From the NCBI GenBank assembly GCA_039798745.1, contig JBDKFK010000004.1, positions 21,178 through 85,177 of the forward strand: a DNA stretch of 64,000 nt, read 5' to 3'. Under the pieces are notes generated by a model. The model saw nothing but the letters and a program-made list of their open reading frames with translations, had not been told where the DNA came from and made no database searches. The translations under genes and the position numbers were made by a program. Below, in pieces: positions 310 through 58,410 of the stretch. Source of the stretch: Candidatus Parcubacteria bacterium. GTDB lineage: Bacteria > Patescibacteriota > Microgenomatia > UBA1406 > GWC2-37-13. How positions within the stretch are numbered: the first letter of the stretch is position 1; every line of letters starts with the position of its first letter.

Positions 310-759
310 ATGAAACACAGAGCCAATAAAATAAAATTTAAAGACGGAATCGACGCAAATAGAATGCTTATGAGAAAGCTGTTTATAAACTTTGTATCTC
401 ATGGACATTTAACCACCACTGAGAAAAAAGCAAAAGTGCTTAAATCATACATAGAAAAGCTGGTTGAAAAGACAAAGAAACAGACAGAAGCAGATAAGAA
501 TTATTTGCTCACTAAGGTCGCATCATCAAAGATTGTCGAGACACTCTTTAAACAAATAGGAGCGCAGATTGAGAATAGAATAGGCGGTTACGCACGTGTA
601 GAGAAGCTTCATGCACGGGTTTCAGACGGTGCTCCTATGGCTAAGGTTTCATGGTCAGTTCCTATGGTAAAAGAAGAACCAAAAGCAAAAGAAGTAAAAA
701 CCACAAAAAAACCAGTTAAAGACACAAAAGAAGTGGCACAGGTCCCCGCTGAAAAATAA
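310..759 (+). CDS. rplQ: 50S ribosomal protein L17
   Basis: 149 aa, directly after rpoA. The N-terminus MKHRANKIKF...RMLMRKL...HGHLTTTEKKAK and the GGYARV motif are typical of L17. It has a Lys-rich tail. Confidence 0.9.
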   Translation: MKHRANKIKFKDGIDANRMLMRKLFINFVSHGHLTTTEKKAKVLKSYIEKLVEKTKKQTEADKNYLLTKVASSKIVETLFKQIGAQIENRIGGYARVEKLHARVSDGAPMAKVSWSVPMVKEEPKAKEVKTTKKPVKDTKEVAQVPAEK

Positions 760-54455: not shown

Positions 54456-55577
54456 CTATCGGGTGTACTTTTTTTCAATATATTCATCACGCGACGTTTT
54501 GTACGCGGTAAAGAAATCTAGGCTATCTGAAGTATCGATACGATGTGAGTTGATGAATTTTATAAAATCCTGGAGAGACTGAAGAATATTGTCCGTATTA
54601 TGTTTAAATATCTGATCATGCATCTCAATATTGCCACTTGCTAAGCGCGTTGTAGTTTCAAAGCCACTCCCGGCAAGCTCCATAATCTCTTCATAATCGG
54701 TGGCAATAAACGCGAACATATAAACTGAAACAAGGAATACAAGATGTGATACTACTGCCACATTACGGTCGTGTGCTACTGCGTCTGAGACTACGGGGGT
54801 TCCGCCCAGATATTTGATTACATCTTTTAATGTGTCCACGGTAGAGTTCTTATTATGCTCATGAGGTGTAATAACCCATGGATTATGCAGAAATAACGAG
54901 GCTTTTGATGCCTTATATCCTGATTTTTCTGAGCCTGCCATCGGATGAGTGGGAACAAATTCAACCTGTGCGTTTGTCATCTTCATAAACTCTTCGCTGA
55001 TCGAGGATTTAACACTGGCAACATCTATTACAACAAGCCTCTGGGTTCTCCCCGACGCATAGGATGCAATTGAATGCGCGATTGAGATAATTGTATCTAT
55101 AGGTGAGGCGATTACAACAAGATCACACGTTTCAACCAGTGTACGCATGTCAACTTCTTTGGTGATTGTTTTGGTATCTCTGGGTGGATTTTTTAGAAGA
55201 GAATAGATCGGCAAATCCGCATTTTTTGCTCGCAAAGCCTTTGCTATCGAGCCTCCAATTAACCCAAGTCCAATTATTCCAATCTGAGAATAGGGGAGGG
55301 TATCATACGCAAATAGTTGCTGAGGGGCTTTGCACGAGGCTATTACTGATCTGTAGATTGGTTCAATATATTCTTTCAGGAGTGGATCATCTATCTGTTG
55401 TTCCAGTTTTTGGATGAGGGCTTGCTCACGGACTGTATCAGTTATAGGTGCATTATTCCTTTTTTTTACAGCACCCACCTCTTTTGCTATTTCGAAGCGT
55501 TCGGTAAGGAGCTCTGCTATCTGTTTATCAATCGCGTCCAGACGCGTACGAAGAGGACTAAGATCACTACCACTCAT
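54456..55577 (-). CDS. tyrA: Bifunctional chorismate mutase / prephenate dehydrogenase
   Basis: The N-terminal CM type 2 helix is LRTRLDAIDKQIAELLTERFEIAKEVGAVK. A Rossmann IGIIGLGLIGGSIAKAL follows, then the prephenate dehydrogenase body (HPMAGSE). It overlaps pheA by 4 nt. Confidence 0.8.
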   Translation of the reverse strand: MSGSDLSPLRTRLDAIDKQIAELLTERFEIAKEVGAVKKRNNAPITDTVREQALIQKLEQQIDDPLLKEYIEPIYRSVIASCKAPQQLFAYDTLPYSQIGIIGLGLIGGSIAKALRAKNADLPIYSLLKNPPRDTKTITKEVDMRTLVETCDLVVIASPIDTIISIAHSIASYASGRTQRLVVIDVASVKSSISEEFMKMTNAQVEFVPTHPMAGSEKSGYKASKASLFLHNPWVITPHEHNKNSTVDTLKDVIKYLGGTPVVSDAVAHDRNVAVVSHLVFLVSVYMFAFIATDYEEIMELAGSGFETTTRLASGNIEMHDQIFKHNTDNILQSLQDFIKFINSHRIDTSDSLDFFTAYKTSRDEYIEKKYTR

Positions 55578-56416
55578 AGTGTTTTTTCTGATTTATAAAA
55601 CCCCAAAACCTGGAGAGTAATGGTATATTTTCTCAGTTCGTTAAAAACATTATCTATTGCCTGTATATCTCCTTTAGGAAACTCAAAATCTACGTAGAAG
55701 ATATATTCAAATGGTTTTGCCTGTATAGGTCTTGACTCTATTTTTGTAAGATTATAGTCCTGGTCTGCAAGAATTTTGAGTGTGTTCATAAGGCTTCCCG
55801 GGACATGAGAAAGCGTAAACATTATGGAACATTTATTTGAATCATCTGCGAACGAGCGGTTTTTTGAAAGAACAAGAAAACGGGTATAGTTGATGACGTG
55901 ATCCTGAATATTAGTTTTTATTATGGTGAGCCCGTACATATCGGCCGCCTCGCGATTTGCGATCGCGGCAATAGTAGGATTCTGCAATTCACTTACGTAT
56001 TTTGCTGCAGATGCTGTATCGCCGTAGGCAATTTTTTCTATGTGTGGATATTTTTCAAAAAATAGATTGCATTGCTCAAGGGCTTTGGGGTGGGAATATA
56101 CCTTTTTTATTTCCTGCAATGCTTTTTCCGAAGTATCGAGCGGATTTTTTATCATGAGATGATGCTCTACTTTAAGATAGAGTTCTCCTATGGCATTTGC
56201 TTTGTATTCGCTCAGATAATCGTAGTTATCATAGATTGATCCTGCGAGACTATTCTCAATTGGGATAATTCCAAACTCCGCCGTGTTTTCCCTAAGGGCG
56301 TCAAATATGCCCTTAAAGTTTTCGTAGCCACTAAATGATGCATCCGACCCAAAATATTTAAGTGCTGCTGAGTAGGAGAACGAGCCTGGTATTCCAAGAT
56401 ATGCTACCTTATTCAT
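55574..56416 (-). CDS. pheA: Prephenate dehydratase
   Basis: MNKVAYLGIPGSFSYSAA, a TRF motif (NYTRFLVL), and an ACT domain with ESRP (KIESRPI). I prefer the ATG at 56416 to the upstream GTG. Confidence 0.85.
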   Translation of the reverse strand: MNKVAYLGIPGSFSYSAALKYFGSDASFSGYENFKGIFDALRENTAEFGIIPIENSLAGSIYDNYDYLSEYKANAIGELYLKVEHHLMIKNPLDTSEKALQEIKKVYSHPKALEQCNLFFEKYPHIEKIAYGDTASAAKYVSELQNPTIAAIANREAADMYGLTIIKTNIQDHVINYTRFLVLSKNRSFADDSNKCSIMFTLSHVPGSLMNTLKILADQDYNLTKIESRPIQAKPFEYIFYVDFEFPKGDIQAIDNVFNELRKYTITLQVLGFYKSEKTL

Positions 56417-56460
56417 AGTATTGTTATATTCTAAATCCGCAACTGATAAATAGCAAATCA

Positions 56461-57456
56461 CTACGCGGCACGGTTTGCATAGCGCTGAGCTCTTTGGACA
56501 GGTTCTGTCTGAACATTGGTGTCAGGGGTTTGCAGCTGGCGGAACGTTGCAAGCTGTTTTACTAGATGGTCAAGCTCTAACAGGGTTATGTGTTGTTGAG
56601 TATCGGTTTTGGAAGTTCCTACCTCAATAAGAATACCATCATAGAGAAATGTGCCGTCACCAGTTTTCATCCGCATGGCTGCTACCGTAGCAGCAACAAT
56701 TTCATCACGCAGTTTGGGCCCGTAAATATGACTGGGATCAAAGTATAGCTTTGCTCCGGTTGCGAGCTTGGTTCGAAGGGCTATTGTATGTACGGGATAA
56801 TTGCGGAAACTGCCTTTTCCATGGACATCAACCCCACGATGAATAAGCACTACATCTCCATCGGTATTTCCTATGTACGTTTTTAAACCGGCCCATGTTT
56901 TTTCCATGGTCGTTTGGCCGGCATACGCATCGGAGTCAGCACGTGACAGCTCATCGCCAACCCACTTGCCGTTTTTTATACCTACGTGCCATCCGTTACG
57001 TTTGGCGAATAGAGCCATTTCGTGTATCTGCCAACCCAGTTGGTTCACAGCGGGATTCCATGGCATAAGTTTGCCCCGGGGAACACGTTTTTCATAGCTA
57101 GGAAGTTGCAGGGAGGGCATCATTACTTCGGTCGCGACTATCATGCCTGTTTTTTTTACCACCTCTTCGGCAATAGTTACGCTTGGCGCGATCTGAAAAT
57201 CACGGTTACTTCCTCCTTGTGCAAGGATCTCCATGTTCGCCGCCAGGGTGAGGCTATCGAGTCCCATGTTTGAAGGATCTGCCATTAACTCGGTCCGTGA
57301 CTTGAGGCCTACTATACGTGTGCCGGCTATAGCCTGTTGATGGCGTCCGTGCATGTTGGTAACTTCGATCTGGGACAACGCCATAACTTCGTTGATGTTG
57401 TGTTCATCAATGGAGCATGGCCCGGCGATGATTGTACACGTTTGTGCTGTATTCAT
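56461..57456 (-). CDS. 3-deoxy-7-phosphoheptulonate (DAHP) synthase, type I-beta-like
   Basis: MNTAQTCTIIAGPCSIDE resembles the IIAGPCSVES start of class I-beta DAHPS/KDO8PS-fold enzymes, with a GLKSRT (KPRT-like) motif. It is first in the operon with pheA and tyrA. The ATG at 57456 is chosen because the 37-codon extension to 57567 runs through the leader hairpins. Confidence 0.65.
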   Translation of the reverse strand: MNTAQTCTIIAGPCSIDEHNINEVMALSQIEVTNMHGRHQQAIAGTRIVGLKSRTELMADPSNMGLDSLTLAANMEILAQGGSNRDFQIAPSVTIAEEVVKKTGMIVATEVMMPSLQLPSYEKRVPRGKLMPWNPAVNQLGWQIHEMALFAKRNGWHVGIKNGKWVGDELSRADSDAYAGQTTMEKTWAGLKTYIGNTDGDVVLIHRGVDVHGKGSFRNYPVHTIALRTKLATGAKLYFDPSHIYGPKLRDEIVAATVAAMRMKTGDGTFLYDGILIEVGTSKTDTQQHITLLELDHLVKQLATFRQLQTPDTNVQTEPVQRAQRYANRAA

Positions 57457-57523
57457 AGGTATTGTGAAATTTATAATAAGCGCCGCTACCGGACTTCGCC
57501 TTTTGATAGATGGCTTCGCCCGG

Positions 57524-57569
57524 TTATGGCCTGTAATCCGCTGAACACTCGGCGGATTACAGGCCATAA
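57524..57569 (-). promoter_or_regulatory. 18-bp near-perfect hairpin between the attenuator terminator and the DAHP synthase start
   Basis: ATGGCCTGTAATCCGC (57526-57541) pairs perfectly with GCGGATTACAGGCCAT (57552-57567), with a 10-nt loop. Two more A-T pairs extend the stem outward. Confidence 0.5.
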
Positions 57570-57592
57570 AAAAACCCGCCTTGTGAGCGGGG
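57568..57592 (-). terminator. Attenuator terminator (segments 3:4 + U7)
   Basis: Minus strand reads CCCCGC-UCACAAG-GCGGG-UUUUUUU (plus-strand A7 at 57568-57574). It lies inside a 5' leader, not after a gene. Confidence 0.6.
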
Positions 57593-57614
57593 TTGGGATT
57601 GTGCTTTTTAGTAC

Positions 57615-57701
57615 TTAGAGTTTAGTCATAGTACCTCCCTCCCCGCTAAGCGGGTAGAAAAACCAAAAATAAAAGCTGGAGGCAGCTGATACTAATCTCA
57701 T
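57615..57701 (-). CDS. Aromatic-amino-acid leader peptide (28 aa): MRLVSAASSFYFWFFYPLSGEGGTMTKL
   Basis: ATG at 57701-57699 and TAA at 57617-57615. There are seven consecutive aromatic codons at 57674-57654. An in-frame ATG at 57707 would add MY. It lies upstream of the alternative hairpins and of the aroG-pheA-tyrA operon. Confidence 0.6.
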   Translation of the reverse strand: MRLVSAASSFYFWFFYPLSGEGGTMTKL

Positions 57702-57709
57702 GTACATAC

Positions 57710-57738
57710 ATGATATACCGATATTATGTGATAGTCAA
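57710..57738 (-). promoter_or_regulatory. Sigma70-like promoter for the leader and aromatic operon
   Basis: Minus strand has TTGACT (57738-57733), a 17-nt spacer and TATCAT (57715-57710). The predicted TSS is within a few nt of the leader ATG, so the mRNA may be leaderless. Confidence 0.45.
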
Positions 57739-57797
57739 ATCAACATGCCTTAAGCATATGTAAAAGACAAAGCACGTTTATTGTAGACGATATGCAA

Positions 57798-57826
57798 TTG
57801 AGGACAGTCAAAAGGCGGTGTGTAAT
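57798..57826 (+). promoter_or_regulatory. Possible promoter for the TasA-like operon
   Basis: TTGAGG (57798-57803), a 17-nt spacer and TGTAAT (57821-57826), followed by the SD AAAGGAGGTG before the ATG at 57856. Confidence 0.3.
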
Positions 57827-57855
57827 GAGACATATATGAAAGGAGGTGAAACATA

Positions 57856-58410
57856 ATGAAGCGCAAAATTATGAGTATGATCGCGGCAGTCGCGATACTG
57901 GCAGGTTCCACTGGCGCTGTTTATGCGTACTTTAGCACGACACTTACCAGTGTTAACAACGTTTTTGCTTCGGGCAAGATGGAAATGCAGCTGTCTAAAG
58001 ATAATACTACGTTTACCGAAACGGTATCTGCCGCATTTGGAGGAACGGGCCTGATGCCGGGAACGTGTCTACAGCCCGGGACCTTGTATATTAAAAATAC
58101 AGGAACGGTGAACGGTAATCATATCGATCTAACGGCCAACAATACCAATGTGTCGCTAGCATCGTACCTTAAGCTGGATACGATTACGTACGATGGCATA
58201 GGGGTTACGGTGACTGACGCAAATAGTAATGGATTTGTTGACCTTGATGACCTCAAAACATCGGGCGCTCACAATCTGGCACTGACAGATAAAAATATAG
58301 CTCATCCGCTCGTGATGAAGCTCTGCCTCGATAGTTCCGCGACCAATGCACAGCAGGAACAGACCAATACTATGGAGCTCAGTGTAGTGTTGGATCAGGG
58401 ACCTCATTAA
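57856..58410 (+). CDS. TasA/camelysin-like secreted protein with a SipW-class signal peptide
   Basis: MKRKIMSMIAAVAILAGSTGAVYAYFSTTLTSVNNVFASGKMEM matches the G(T)xAYFSD...N.F.(S/T)G pattern of the TasA/CalY family. LMPGTC...YIKNTGTVN matches the family's PGD...N.G strand. Confidence 0.6.
   Translation: MKRKIMSMIAAVAILAGSTGAVYAYFSTTLTSVNNVFASGKMEMQLSKDNTTFTETVSAAFGGTGLMPGTCLQPGTLYIKNTGTVNGNHIDLTANNTNVSLASYLKLDTITYDGIGVTVTDANSNGFVDLDDLKTSGAHNLALTDKNIAHPLVMKLCLDSSATNAQQEQTNTMELSVVLDQGPH

What the first reader, a model, noticed from the sequence alone, without database searches (positions are those of the whole stretch)
57568..57738. Ribosome-mediated attenuator with an FYFWFFY leader peptide in front of the DAHP synthase-pheA-tyrA operon
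All elements below are read on the minus strand. A good sigma70-like promoter is present: TTGACT at 57738-57733, a 17-nt spacer, and TATCAT at 57715-57710. A 28-codon ORF follows, from ATG 57701 to TAA 57617-57615, encoding MRLVSAASSFYFWFFYPLSGEGGTMTKL. Codons 10-16 (57674-57654) are seven consecutive aromatic codons: 4 Phe, 2 Tyr and 1 Trp. Four short G/C segments come directly after this run. Segment 1 is CCCGC (57654-57650) and segment 2 is GCGGGG (57646-57641). Segment 3 is CCCCGC (57592-57587) and segment 4 is GCGGG (57579-57575), followed by U7 (57574-57568). Pairings 1:2 and 3:4 are hairpins, and 3:4 plus U7 is an intrinsic terminator. Segment 2 is perfectly complementary to segment 3 (6 bp, extendable by a GGG/CCC pairing), so 2:3 is a mutually exclusive anti-terminator. 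A ribosome stalled on the aromatic run would cover segment 1 and free segment 2 to pair with 3. This is the trpL/pheL/hisL attenuation logic. Here the sensor mixes Phe, Tyr and Trp codons and controls the first common step of the pathway plus the Phe and Tyr branch enzymes. Sample 60-nt lines of the DAHP synthase gene count about 52% GC against about 40% in pheA, so the gene, and possibly its leader (not counted), may have been acquired together. I am not aware of leader-peptide attenuation being described in reduced CPR-like genomes, if that lineage assignment holds.
Basis: partly seen in the sequence, partly recalled or inferred. Interest (0 to 1): 0.85.

Follow-up and report, generated by a model that had tools for sequence, protein, structure and literature searches.

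The report
Aromatic leader-peptide attenuator in CPR bacteria
A 28-codon mini-gene packed with Phe, Tyr and Trp codons, followed by two mutually exclusive RNA folds and a terminator, most likely switches on this candidate-phyla-radiation bacterium's aromatic amino-acid genes only when those amino acids run short; the mechanism is classic, but I found no earlier description of it in this lineage.

Summary
The interpretation, ribosome-mediated attenuation, is strongly supported by comparison with related sequences.

FYFWFFY is the only run of 7 or more aromatic codons in any frame of the window (0.04 expected). The anti-terminator 2:3 folds at -21.5 kcal/mol (z -3.8), against -9.3 for the terminator.

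Upstream of the same DAHP-synthase-like gene in Patescibacteria MAGs and metagenomes I found about 46 distinct leaders. Each has a promoter, a short ORF with an F/Y/W run of 4-8 codons, a GC hairpin and a U-tract terminator.

Covariance models built only from metagenomic relatives hit the window once, exactly here (31.7 and 30.9 bits, E about 1e-5). Both the terminator fold and the anti-terminator fold are about 90% paired and covary (0 of 500 shuffles reach the observed score).

New points:
- The leader ORF is probably leaderless: the -10 box ends 6-9 nt before the ATG and there is no Shine-Dalgarno sequence.
- The first gene is a divergent type Iβ DAH7P synthase that starts at 57456.
- A conserved, unexplained two-hairpin module lies between the terminator and that gene.

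It is a new family of a known mechanism. Nothing has been tested experimentally.

The parts
57733..57738 (-). -35 box TTGACT
   Evidence: Equivalent TTGACA-like boxes occur in 38 of 45 related upstream regions.
57710..57715 (-). -10 box TATCAT. It ends 8 nt before the leader ATG, so the predicted transcription start is at about 57703-57701 and the leader ORF is leaderless or nearly so.
   Evidence: In relatives the -10 box ends 6-9 nt before the ATG in 35 of 38 promoters, and none of 45 has a Shine-Dalgarno-like motif.
57615..57701 (-). Leader ORF of 28 codons plus TAA: MRLVSAASSFYFWFFYPLSGEGGTMTKL
   Evidence: Homologous leaders: L091 MRLVSTLSSFYWYFFYPQRGEGSTMTKL and L093 MKLISVSSYYFYFFNPQWREGANMS. 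About 46 distinct leaders in all.
57654..57674 (-). Sensor: seven consecutive aromatic codons (4 Phe, 2 Tyr, 1 Trp)
   Evidence: It is the only run of 7 or more in six frames of the window, against 0.04 expected. Family runs are 4-8 codons: F 155, Y 101, W 10.
57650..57654 (-). Segment 1 (CCCGC), the 5' arm of hairpin 1:2. It starts at the last base of the aromatic run.
   Evidence: 1:2 hairpin -8.6 kcal/mol. Helix 1 in A6 is 92% paired, and all 4 pairs show changes on both sides.
57636..57646 (-). Segment 2 (GCGGGG) plus its extension (A)GGGA. It pairs either with segment 1 or with segment 3.
   Evidence: Covariation of the anti-terminator helix in A9.
57610..57635 (-). Central hairpin GGUACU...AGUACU, which contains the leader stop codon (57617-57615)
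   Evidence: An equivalent central hairpin holding the stop codon occurs in relatives.
57587..57598 (-). Segment 3 (CCCCGC) plus its upstream extension UCCC. It pairs either with segment 2 (anti-terminator) or with segment 4 (terminator).
57568..57592 (-). Intrinsic terminator: stem 57591-57586 with 57580-57575, loop CACAA, then U7 at 57574-57568
   Evidence: (-9.3 kcal/mol). Helix 3 in A6 is 96% paired, and 5 of 6 pairs show changes on both sides.
57488..57568 (-). Post-attenuator module of unknown role: hairpin A (57568-57525, 17 bp) and hairpin B (57524-57488)
   Evidence: -50.4 kcal/mol, z -6.1. A comparable module sits in the same slot in 10 related loci. No Rfam match.
56461..57456 (-). 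First regulated gene: a divergent type Iβ DAH7P (DAHP) synthase-like protein of 331 aa
   Evidence: Weak profile hits. AlphaFold2 model with pLDDT 90.4. The top 17 PDB fold matches are all DAH7P synthases, E about 1e-12. In relatives the gene is followed by DHQ synthase, EPSP synthase, and shikimate kinase or DHQase II.
55574..56461 (-). Prephenate dehydratase (Phe branch)
   Evidence: PF00800, 199 bits; NF008865, 232 bits, above its cut-off.
54456..55577 (-). Chorismate mutase-prephenate dehydrogenase fusion (Tyr branch)
   Evidence: CM_2, PDH_N, PDH_C.

Best explanation
This is a ribosome-mediated (leader-peptide) transcription attenuator. It controls an operon encoding a DAH7P synthase, a prephenate dehydratase and a chorismate mutase-prephenate dehydrogenase fusion.

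Proposed sequence of events:
1. Transcription starts at or within a few bases of the leader AUG (inferred).
2. A ribosome translates the 28-codon ORF while RNA polymerase is still transcribing the leader (inferred).
3. If Phe-, Tyr- or Trp-tRNA is scarce, the ribosome stalls in the FYFWFFY run and covers segment 1. Segment 2 and its extension then pair with segment 3 (6 + 4 bp, stacked on the central hairpin). The terminator cannot form and the operon is transcribed.
4. If aromatic aminoacyl-tRNAs are plentiful, the ribosome runs through segments 1 and 2 to the stop codon inside the central hairpin. Segment 2 is then unavailable, or re-pairs with segment 1. Hairpin 3:4 plus U7 forms and transcription ends at about 57568.

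Shown here: all the sequence elements, the competing folds and their energies, their conservation and covariation in about 40 relatives, and the aromatic-biosynthesis identity of the regulated genes.

Inferred, not shown: translation of the ORF, the transcription start, coupling of ribosome and polymerase, and the response to starvation.
For: - Anatomy and coordinates.
- The aromatic run is unique in the window.
- Fold energies: 1:2 -8.6, 3:4 -9.3, 2:3 -21.5 kcal/mol (z -3.8); whole leader z -3.97.
- With a ribosome mask at the first or middle aromatic codons the anti-terminator forms. With the mask at the last aromatic codon the terminator forms.
- The pattern (short ATG ORF with an aromatic run plus a nearby T-run) gives 57 forward-strand hits against 5 reverse-strand hits in 304 kb of related loci. 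About 46 of the leaders are distinct.
- The anti-terminator sequesters the terminator arm in 38 of 41 leaders; median z -3.6.
- Model R1 (terminator fold, 6 metagenomic seeds) hits the window only at 57568-57663, 31.7 bits, E 1e-5. Model R2 (anti-terminator fold) hits the same site, 30.9 bits.
- Terminator-state pairs: 89.9% paired, 14 of 15 pairs changed on both sides, covariation score 0.397 against 0.121 for shuffles.
- Anti-terminator pairs: 90% paired, 11 of 14 pairs changed on both sides, 0.272 against 0.079.
- Separate clades use CCGC/GCGG, CCCCC/GGGAGG/CCUCCC and CUUU/AAAGGAG versions of all four segments.
- The regulated genes are aromatic-biosynthesis genes.
- Precedents: the C. glutamicum aroR leader (Phe-Tyr-Phe) before the DAHP synthase gene aroF (PMC11802643), and leaderless leader peptides in Deinococcus deserti (PMC4007540).
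Against: - There is no experimental evidence of any kind for this uncultured lineage.
- The naked-RNA minimum-energy fold is the 1:4 + 2:3 cruciform (-44 to -45.4 kcal/mol), against -39.4 for 1:2 + 3:4. Termination is therefore not the thermodynamic default and needs a ribosome or favourable folding kinetics.
- Hairpin 1:2 has only 5 bp.
- In this window the stop codon is 24 nt past segment 2, so a terminating ribosome may not cover segment 2.
- Stalling at codons 15-16 would also mask segment 2.
- The Rfam Trp_leader and Phe_leader models score below their thresholds (26.3 against 41; 19.9 against 55).
- Each covariation count was made on an alignment fitted to the structure being tested. On the terminator-fitted alignment, the anti-terminator counted in one fixed register is only 71% paired against 67% for shuffles.
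- The sequences are related to one another, so shuffle counts overstate significance.
Confidence: 0.85

Rival explanations
1. The element is a translation-independent attenuator. The alternative hairpins are real, but the switch is set by a protein, a tRNA or a small ligand that binds the U-rich or structured leader. The short ORF is incidental.
For: - Terminator and anti-terminator folds alone do not prove that a ribosome is involved.
- The U-rich run can pair with an A-rich tract in several relatives.
- A second structured module of unknown role follows the terminator.
Against: - No T-box, riboswitch or other Rfam family matches.
- About 46 distinct leaders keep an in-frame ATG, most often 8-9 codons before the run, and an in-frame stop in the central region. 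The ATG and stop were search criteria, so only their consistent spacing counts as independent evidence.
- TAT/TAC and TTT/TTC alternate while the amino-acid class is kept, and Trp TGG appears within the run.
- The promoter is placed so that the AUG lies at the 5' end of the transcript.
- The enriched codons match the pathway's products.
Confidence: 0.05
2. The leader ORF is translated and senses aromatic aminoacyl-tRNA, but the output is mainly post-transcriptional: downstream translation or mRNA stability, possibly acting through the post-attenuator hairpins. Premature termination is not the main output.
For: - The start codon of the DAH7P synthase gene has no Shine-Dalgarno sequence.
- The region between U7 and that start codon is highly structured (z -6.1).
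- The naked-RNA minimum-energy fold lacks the terminator.
Against: - A canonical GC stem followed by 6-9 U is conserved in nearly all leaders, and the stem covaries.
- In many relatives the U-tract lies only 8-30 nt from the start codon, with no extra module.
Confidence: 0.06
3. The short ORF encodes a functional small peptide, for example a hydrophobic or Cys-rich product. The downstream hairpin is an ordinary, leaky terminator of that small gene.
For: - Some clades end in Cys- and Gly-rich tails (CGGGCSC).
- The peptide is conserved among close relatives.
Against: - Apart from the aromatic run, the peptide is not conserved across clades.
- The conserved tail codons coincide with the arms of the RNA stems and covary as base pairs, not as amino acids.
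- The N-terminal 8-9 residues vary freely.
- The element is always found upstream of aromatic-pathway genes.
Confidence: 0.02
4. A U-rich stretch, a short ORF and a terminator-like hairpin occur together by chance in an AT-rich intergenic region.
For: - AT-rich genomes contain many TTT and TAT codons.
- One other aromatic run of 6 codons exists in the window (667-684, minus strand).
Against: - That other run is antisense to the Lys-rich tail of the ribosomal protein L17 gene.
- The run here is unique at length 7 or more (0.04 expected).
- Independent covariance models find only this site in the window.
- The architecture is conserved with compensatory base changes.
Confidence: 0.01

Closest known systems
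E. coli pheL-pheA attenuator (Rfam RF01859 Phe_leader) and the pheM leader of pheST
   Same: - A short leader ORF with a run of aromatic (Phe) codons.
- Alternative 1:2, 2:3 and 3:4 hairpins and an intrinsic terminator.
- Control of a Phe-branch enzyme.
- Two related leaders (L038, L060) reach 42.8 and 41.5 bits on RF01859.
   Different: - The window scores 19.9 bits against a gathering score of 55, so it is not a member of that Rfam family.
- The sensor mixes Phe, Tyr and Trp codons.
- The leader ORF has no Shine-Dalgarno sequence and is probably leaderless.
- The operon begins with the common-pathway enzyme.
- The lineage is Patescibacteria, not Gammaproteobacteria.
E. coli trpL attenuator (Rfam RF00513 Trp_leader)
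   Same: - The same four-segment logic.
- It is the best Rfam match to the window (26.3 bits, E 0.015), mostly through the terminator.
   Different: - The match is below the gathering score of 41.
- trpL has two Trp codons, against a seven-codon mixed aromatic run here.
- The regulated operon is different.
Corynebacterium glutamicum aroR leader upstream of aroF (DAHP synthase); Neshat et al. 2014, as summarised in PMC11802643
   Same: - A leader peptide with mixed aromatic codons (Phe-Tyr-Phe).
- Attenuation of an operon that contains a DAHP synthase gene.
   Different: - The phylum is different (Actinobacteria).
- The run has three codons, against 4-8 in this family.
- That paper reports a response to Phe limitation only.
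- Sequence homology was not tested because I had no aroR sequence to hand.
- The DAHP synthase class is probably different, from my own knowledge; this was not tested.
Leaderless leader-peptide attenuators in Deinococcus deserti (PMC4007540) and polycysteine leaderless short ORFs in mycobacteria (bioRxiv 10.1101/834739)
   Same: - The transcript begins at or next to the AUG of a short ORF rich in the regulatory amino acid.
- There is no Shine-Dalgarno sequence.
- The downstream genes are for biosynthesis or tRNA-synthetase functions.
   Different: - Here the leaderless start is inferred only from the distance between the -10 box and the ATG.
- The amino acids sensed and the lineages are different.
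Computationally predicted attenuators before DAHP synthase (Iβ) > tyrA operons in Thermus, Bacteroides and others (PMC1173090, Table 7)
   Same: A terminator/anti-terminator pair is predicted upstream of operons that combine a DAHP synthase gene with tyrA.
   Different: - Those are database predictions, and no leader-peptide analysis is given in the passages I read.
- No Patescibacteria are listed.

Membership tests
Ribosome-mediated (leader-peptide) transcription attenuators | A short ORF in the 5' leader, enriched in codons for the end-product amino acid(s) | tested here: met
   A 28-codon ORF with 7 consecutive F/Y/W codons. The run is unique in the window and is conserved in about 46 distinct relatives.
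Ribosome-mediated (leader-peptide) transcription attenuators | An intrinsic terminator between the leader ORF and the first structural gene, not attributable to an upstream gene | tested here: met
   Stem 57591-57575 plus U7. The upstream neighbour is divergently transcribed. The stem covaries.
Ribosome-mediated (leader-peptide) transcription attenuators | A mutually exclusive anti-terminator that uses the terminator's 5' arm | tested here: met
   Helix 2:3 is -21.5 kcal/mol, z -3.8. It forms in 38 of 41 leaders, median z -3.6. It covaries in A9. The signal is weaker on a fixed register in the terminator-fitted alignment.
Ribosome-mediated (leader-peptide) transcription attenuators | The regulatory codons are placed so that a stalled ribosome masks segment 1 but not segment 2 | tested here: inconclusive
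   The run ends at the first base of segment 1, both here and in most relatives. Masking models give the anti-terminator for stalls at early or middle codons, but the terminator for the last codon, where segment 2 is also covered.
Ribosome-mediated (leader-peptide) transcription attenuators | The downstream genes make the sensed amino acids | tested here: met
   DAH7P synthase-like, PDT and CM-PDH in the window. Shikimate-pathway genes in relatives.
Ribosome-mediated (leader-peptide) transcription attenuators | The leader ORF is translated, and read-through rises when the cognate aminoacyl-tRNA is limiting | not testable with these tools
   This needs Term-seq, a reporter assay or in-vitro coupled transcription-translation.
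Rfam RF01859 Phe_leader / RF00513 Trp_leader | A score at or above the family's gathering threshold | tested here: not met
   19.9 against 55, and 26.3 against 41. No hit at gathering thresholds anywhere in the window.
The Patescibacteria aromatic-leader RNA family defined here (models R1, R2) | A significant match to covariance models built from relatives with the window left out | tested here: met
   R1: 31.7 bits, E 1e-5, the only hit in 64 kb. R2: 30.9 bits, E 5e-5.
Type Iβ DAH7P synthase (Pfam PF00793) | A sequence-profile match above the curated threshold | tested here: not met
   PF00793 21 bits against 25.5; NF006421 30 bits against 335. Many homologues do carry a precomputed PF00793 hit.
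Type Iβ DAH7P synthase (Pfam PF00793) | The DAH7PS/KDO8PS TIM-barrel fold, closest to DAH7P synthases | tested here: met
   Model pLDDT 90.4. PDB ranks 1-17 are all DAH7P synthases (E 1e-12 to 3e-10, TM 0.57-0.73); KDO8P synthases rank below them.
Type Iβ DAH7P synthase (Pfam PF00793) | Shikimate-pathway gene context | tested here: met
   In relatives the gene is followed by DHQ synthase, EPSP synthase, and shikimate kinase or DHQase II, and in one locus preceded by transaldolase.
Type Iβ DAH7P synthase (Pfam PF00793) | Catalytic activity (condensation of PEP and erythrose 4-phosphate) | not testable with these tools
   Invariant C14 (GPCS), H243 (DPSH), E278 and D285 are compatible with the metal-binding residues of this enzyme class. 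That reading is an inference only.

The most novel reading that the evidence does not exclude
The leader is a two-tier regulator. The aromatic leader-peptide attenuator is followed by a second, previously undescribed structured RNA module (57568-57488). That module is conserved in about ten related loci, with different stem sequences but a recurrent GUUUCC/GGAUUAC motif and an AAUCC...GGGAU closing helix. On this reading it senses a different signal (a ligand, a protein or temperature) and gates translation or stability of the DAH7P synthase message.
Probability: 0.15. Interest if true: 0.7.

Novelty: new member of a known kind. Interest (0 to 1): 0.5.

Why it matters
- **New lineage.** CPR/Patescibacteria are uncultured, have small genomes and are usually described as poor in both biosynthesis and regulation. 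Here a conserved RNA switch family controls their shikimate and aromatic amino-acid genes by the classical attenuation mechanism.
- **Coupling.** That mechanism requires transcription and translation to be tightly coupled, apparently starting from a leaderless AUG. This gives a concrete, testable handle on gene regulation and on coupling in a lineage that cannot yet be grown.
- **Combined sensing.** Mixing Phe, Tyr and sometimes Trp codons in one sensor in front of the first common-pathway enzyme is a neat way to integrate several end products. A sister clade uses a WWW leader instead.
- **Practical gains.** The work yields a candidate new Rfam family. It corrects the start codon of the first gene. 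It also shows that a protein family annotated mostly as 'hypothetical' in these MAGs is a divergent DAH7P synthase.

Tried and rejected
- **RNAalifold on MAFFT alignments** of the leaders and of the post-attenuator module returned no consensus structure. The stems were out of register and two folds compete. I replaced this with covariance-model alignments.
- **Counting 2:3 in one fixed register** on the terminator-fitted alignment gave only a weak signal: 71% against 67% paired. The bulge or internal loop differs between clades. A model built on the anti-terminator fold resolved this.
- **Sequence searches of the first gene against PDB** gave nothing with a single sequence. A profile gave only faint N-terminal hits to DAH7P synthases, E about 0.04. 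Fold comparison was needed.
- **T-box, riboswitch or other known RNA family:** rejected; there are no matches.
- **The second aromatic run in the window** (667-684, minus strand, FWFFFY) is rejected as chance. It is antisense to the L17 gene.
- **Hairpin A as a dispersed repeat:** there are no other copies in the window.
- **Start of the first gene at ATG 57567** (the 368-aa call used by public annotations): rejected. Homologues align from MNxxx...IIAGPCS, and the 72%-identical homologue P0002 (locus L091) is called at the equivalent of 57456.
- **Horizontal acquisition of the gene plus leader:** not pursued beyond GC content. I neither support nor reject it.
Full report
**1. The observation**

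- The promoter is TTGACT (57738-57733), a 17-nt spacer and TATCAT (57715-57710). It matches 10 of 12 consensus positions and is the best promoter-like site in the 2.2 kb scanned.
- The ORF runs from ATG 57701 to TAA 57617-57615 and encodes MRLVSAASSFYFWFFYPLSGEGGTMTKL.
- The seven aromatic codons lie at 57674-57654.
- The four GC segments and U7 are at the stated positions.
- The terminator scan independently reports the stem 57591-57575 followed by T7.

The region 57456-57856 is a divergent intergenic region. The next gene upstream (57856-58410) is on the other strand, so the terminator cannot be the end of an upstream gene.

FYFWFFY is the only run of 7 or more F/Y/W codons in all six frames of the 64-kb window, against 0.04 expected from block shuffles. 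The only other run of 6 (667-684, minus strand) is antisense to the ribosomal protein L17 gene and is chance.

**2. Folding of the window's leader**
- The 134-nt leader folds at -44 kcal/mol, z -3.97.
- Hairpin 1:2 is -8.6 kcal/mol and the terminator 3:4 is -9.3.
- The 2:3 anti-terminator is -21.5, z -3.78. It consists of 6 bp GCGGGG:CCCCGC, 4 bp GGGA:UCCC, and a stacked central hairpin that contains the stop codon.
- With the 5' part masked as a ribosome stalled at the first or middle aromatic codon would mask it, the minimum-energy fold is the anti-terminator. With the mask at the last aromatic codon, segment 2 is also covered and the terminator forms.

One complication: the naked full-length RNA prefers a cruciform in which 1 pairs with 4 and 2 pairs with 3 (-45.4 kcal/mol, against -39.4 for 1:2 + 3:4). 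Termination is therefore not the thermodynamic default. It must rely on the translating ribosome occupying segment 2 and the central hairpin, or on co-transcriptional folding order.

**3. The downstream genes**
- The second gene is a prephenate dehydratase. The third is a chorismate mutase-prephenate dehydrogenase fusion.
- Sequence profiles barely recognise the first gene: PF00793 scores 21 bits against a cut-off of 25.5, and NCBIfam DAH7PS models give E 3e-7 to 4e-5, far below their cut-offs.
- It has 841 homologues. Most are annotated 'hypothetical', in Roizmanbacteria, Woesebacteria, Dojkabacteria and other Patescibacteria.
- An AlphaFold2 model built with 36 sequences is confident (pLDDT 90.4). 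Its 17 best PDB matches are all type Iβ DAH7P synthases (E about 1e-12, TM 0.57-0.73), ahead of KDO8P synthases.
- In related loci the gene is followed by 3-dehydroquinate synthase, EPSP synthase, and shikimate kinase or dehydroquinase II. In one locus it is preceded by transaldolase. L001 has the same PDT and CM-PDH arrangement as the window.
- I therefore accept it as a divergent DAH7P synthase. Homologue alignments place its start at ATG 57456, not at the ATG at 57567 used by public gene calls.

**4. Relatives**
- A scan of one genome per species found 11 loci, in MAGs labelled Patescibacteria or Microgenomates. A metagenome scan added 75 more.
- Upstream of the gene, or of the operon when a transaldolase gene comes first, I found leaders such as MSKKPFHRFYFYFYFTASGGVESYV, MNISRQANYFWFYFTPLREVS, MKNVTTQKFYFYFDPPCGGGCSC and MNTSNQYFYFFFFYPPNREVGCLCNKLN. 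Each is followed by a GC hairpin and a terminator with 6-9 U.
- The search pattern gives 57 forward-strand hits and 5 reverse-strand hits in 304 kb.
- Forty-six distinct leaders are 17-35 codons long (median 24). Most often 8 residues precede a run of 4-8 aromatic codons (F 155, Y 101, W 10). Ten leaders include Trp in the run. TAT/TAC and TTT/TTC alternate.
- Closer relatives of the window keep the same design with changes: L091 MRLVSTLSSFYWYFFYPQRGEGSTMTKL and L093 MKLISVSSYYFYFFNPQWREGANMS.
- The window itself is from a CPR genome. Its L13 protein is identical to one from an NCBI 'Candidatus Parcubacteria' MAG, and the next named hits are Roizmanbacteria, Microgenomates and Patescibacteria. 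The identical locus is in assembly GCA_964596635.1.

**5. Structure conservation**
- With segment 1 masked and segment 4 withheld, the anti-terminator pairs at least 80% of the terminator's 5' arm in 38 of 41 distinct leaders. Energies lie a median 3.6 sd below dinucleotide shuffles, and 39 of 41 are below -2 sd.
- Model R1 was built from six metagenomic leaders in the terminator state, without the window. It hits the window once, at 57568-57663, with 31.7 bits and E 1e-5. It gives about 58 matches at the expected leader positions across the loci (64 matches at E ≤ 1).
- On its alignment of 41 leaders, the 1:2, central and 3:4 helices are 89.9% paired. Fourteen of 15 pairs show changes on both sides. 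The covariation score is 0.397, against 0.121 for shuffles (0 of 500 reach it) and at most 0.086 for slid registers.
- Model R2 was built on the anti-terminator fold from four seeds. It hits the same window site (30.9 bits). On its alignment of 35 leaders, 90% of cells are paired, 11 of 14 pairs change on both sides, and the score is 0.272 against 0.079.
- Each count was made on an alignment fitted to the fold being tested, and the sequences are related, so these numbers are supportive rather than formal probabilities.
- Different clades carry different versions of all four segments together: CCGC/GCGG, CCCCC/GGGAGG/CCUCCC/GGGAGG, and CUUCUUU/AAAGGAG. This is what the three-way pairing model predicts.

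**6.
- In 38 of 45 distinct upstream regions there is a sigma-70-like promoter matching at least 9 of 12 positions.
- Its -10 box ends 6-9 nt before the leader ATG in 35 of those 38, and 8 nt before it in the window.
- None of the 45 has a Shine-Dalgarno-like motif.
- The leader ORFs are therefore probably translated from leaderless or nearly leaderless transcripts. This has precedent in Deinococcus deserti (PMC4007540) and mycobacteria (bioRxiv 10.1101/834739).

**7. Comparison with known systems**
- The mechanism is that of trpL, pheL and hisL.
- The nearest functional precedent is the C. glutamicum aroR leader (Phe-Tyr-Phe) upstream of the DAHP synthase gene aroF (PMC11802643).
- Attenuators have also been predicted computationally before DAHP synthase > tyrA operons in other phyla (PMC1173090).
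- The window is not a member of Rfam Phe_leader or Trp_leader (19.9 against 55; 26.3 against 41), although two related leaders reach about 42 bits on Phe_leader.
- Full-text searches found no paper that combines leader-peptide attenuation with Patescibacteria or the candidate phyla radiation. That library is incomplete, so this is not proof of absence.

**8. Verdict**
- It is a new family, in a new lineage, of a well-known mechanism. Its distinguishing features are a mixed Phe/Tyr/Trp sensor, probably leaderless initiation, and control of a divergent DAH7P synthase.
- Translation of the ORF, the transcription start, the premature 3' end and the response to starvation all remain inferred.
- My confidence in the mechanism is 0.85. 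Interest is moderate at 0.5: it is not surprising in kind, but it is a clean and testable regulatory element in a lineage where almost nothing is known about regulation.

Noticed in passing
window 57488-57568 (minus strand); also L001, L002, L003, L005, L029, L035, L038, L060, L090, L091 between the U-tract and the start codon: A strongly structured module lies between the attenuator terminator and the DAH7P synthase start. Hairpin A (17 bp) abuts the U-tract and hairpin B follows it (-50.4 kcal/mol, z -6.1). Related loci have a hairpin in the same slot with different stem sequences but a recurrent GUUUCC/GGAUUAC motif. It is followed by a CCAAUCC...GGGAU(N)U-AUUAA closing helix; the window has a compensatory AACCGG/CCGGU. 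There is no Rfam match, no other copy in the window, and the module is absent from many relatives. Its function is unknown.
   Followed up: partly
L062, L066, L067, L068, L071, about 190 nt upstream of the DAH7PS-like gene: A sister clade (47-49% identical enzyme, soil metagenomes) carries a different leader that ends ...F/Y-W-W-W-S-stop (TGG TGG TGG AGC TAA). It is followed by a GGAGCU...AGCUCU hairpin and, further on, a CUCUC/GAGAG stem with a broken U-tract. This looks like a Trp-run variant in front of the same gene family.
   Followed up: partly
L004 1802-1953 and L042 302-453; L045 about 281 nt upstream of the DAH7PS-like gene: A second aromatic leader (MVRFNPNGNFIQVFYFFFLSRGF in L004 and L042) precedes the class IV aminotransferase gene that lies upstream of the shikimate operon. 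A similar short ORF (MSKFYFFFLSRGLDSKMG) lies at a comparable position in L045, whose gene content I did not check. These loci would then have two separately attenuated aromatic-related transcription units.
   Followed up: partly
L077 1115-1227 and 1312-1421: Two aromatic short ORFs, each with its own terminator-like element, lie in tandem upstream of one gene. Model R1 hits them at 35.8 and 21.1 bits.
   Followed up: no
L021, L030, L033, L047 leaders: About 10 codons are inserted inside the aromatic run (FFF-SSTGRSSFGR-YFYF). This splits the sensor in two.
   Followed up: no
window 56461-57567 (minus strand): Public gene calls start the DAH7P synthase-like gene at ATG 57567, directly after the terminator U-tract (368 aa, no Pfam hit). 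Homologue alignment indicates ATG 57456 (331 aa). The protein family is annotated mostly as 'hypothetical protein' in CPR MAGs, although it has a DAH7P synthase fold and shikimate-pathway gene context.
   Followed up: yes
window 57674-57687 (minus strand): A small hairpin, AGCUGCCUCCAGCU, lies inside the leader ORF and ends at the first base of the U-rich aromatic run. The scan flags it as terminator-like (5 bp, 3 GC). It could act as a pause signal. I did not check whether it is conserved in relatives.
   Followed up: no
window 56461-57456 compared with its neighbours: The DAH7P synthase-like gene is 49.0% GC. That is higher than all 17 other ORFs sampled (37.5-44.7%) and the window mean (41.7%). 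I did not examine whether this reflects horizontal acquisition or protein composition.
   Followed up: partly
window 57430-57480 and the related loci: The DAH7P synthase start codons have no Shine-Dalgarno sequence. In many relatives they lie only 8-30 nt after the terminator U-tract.
   Followed up: no
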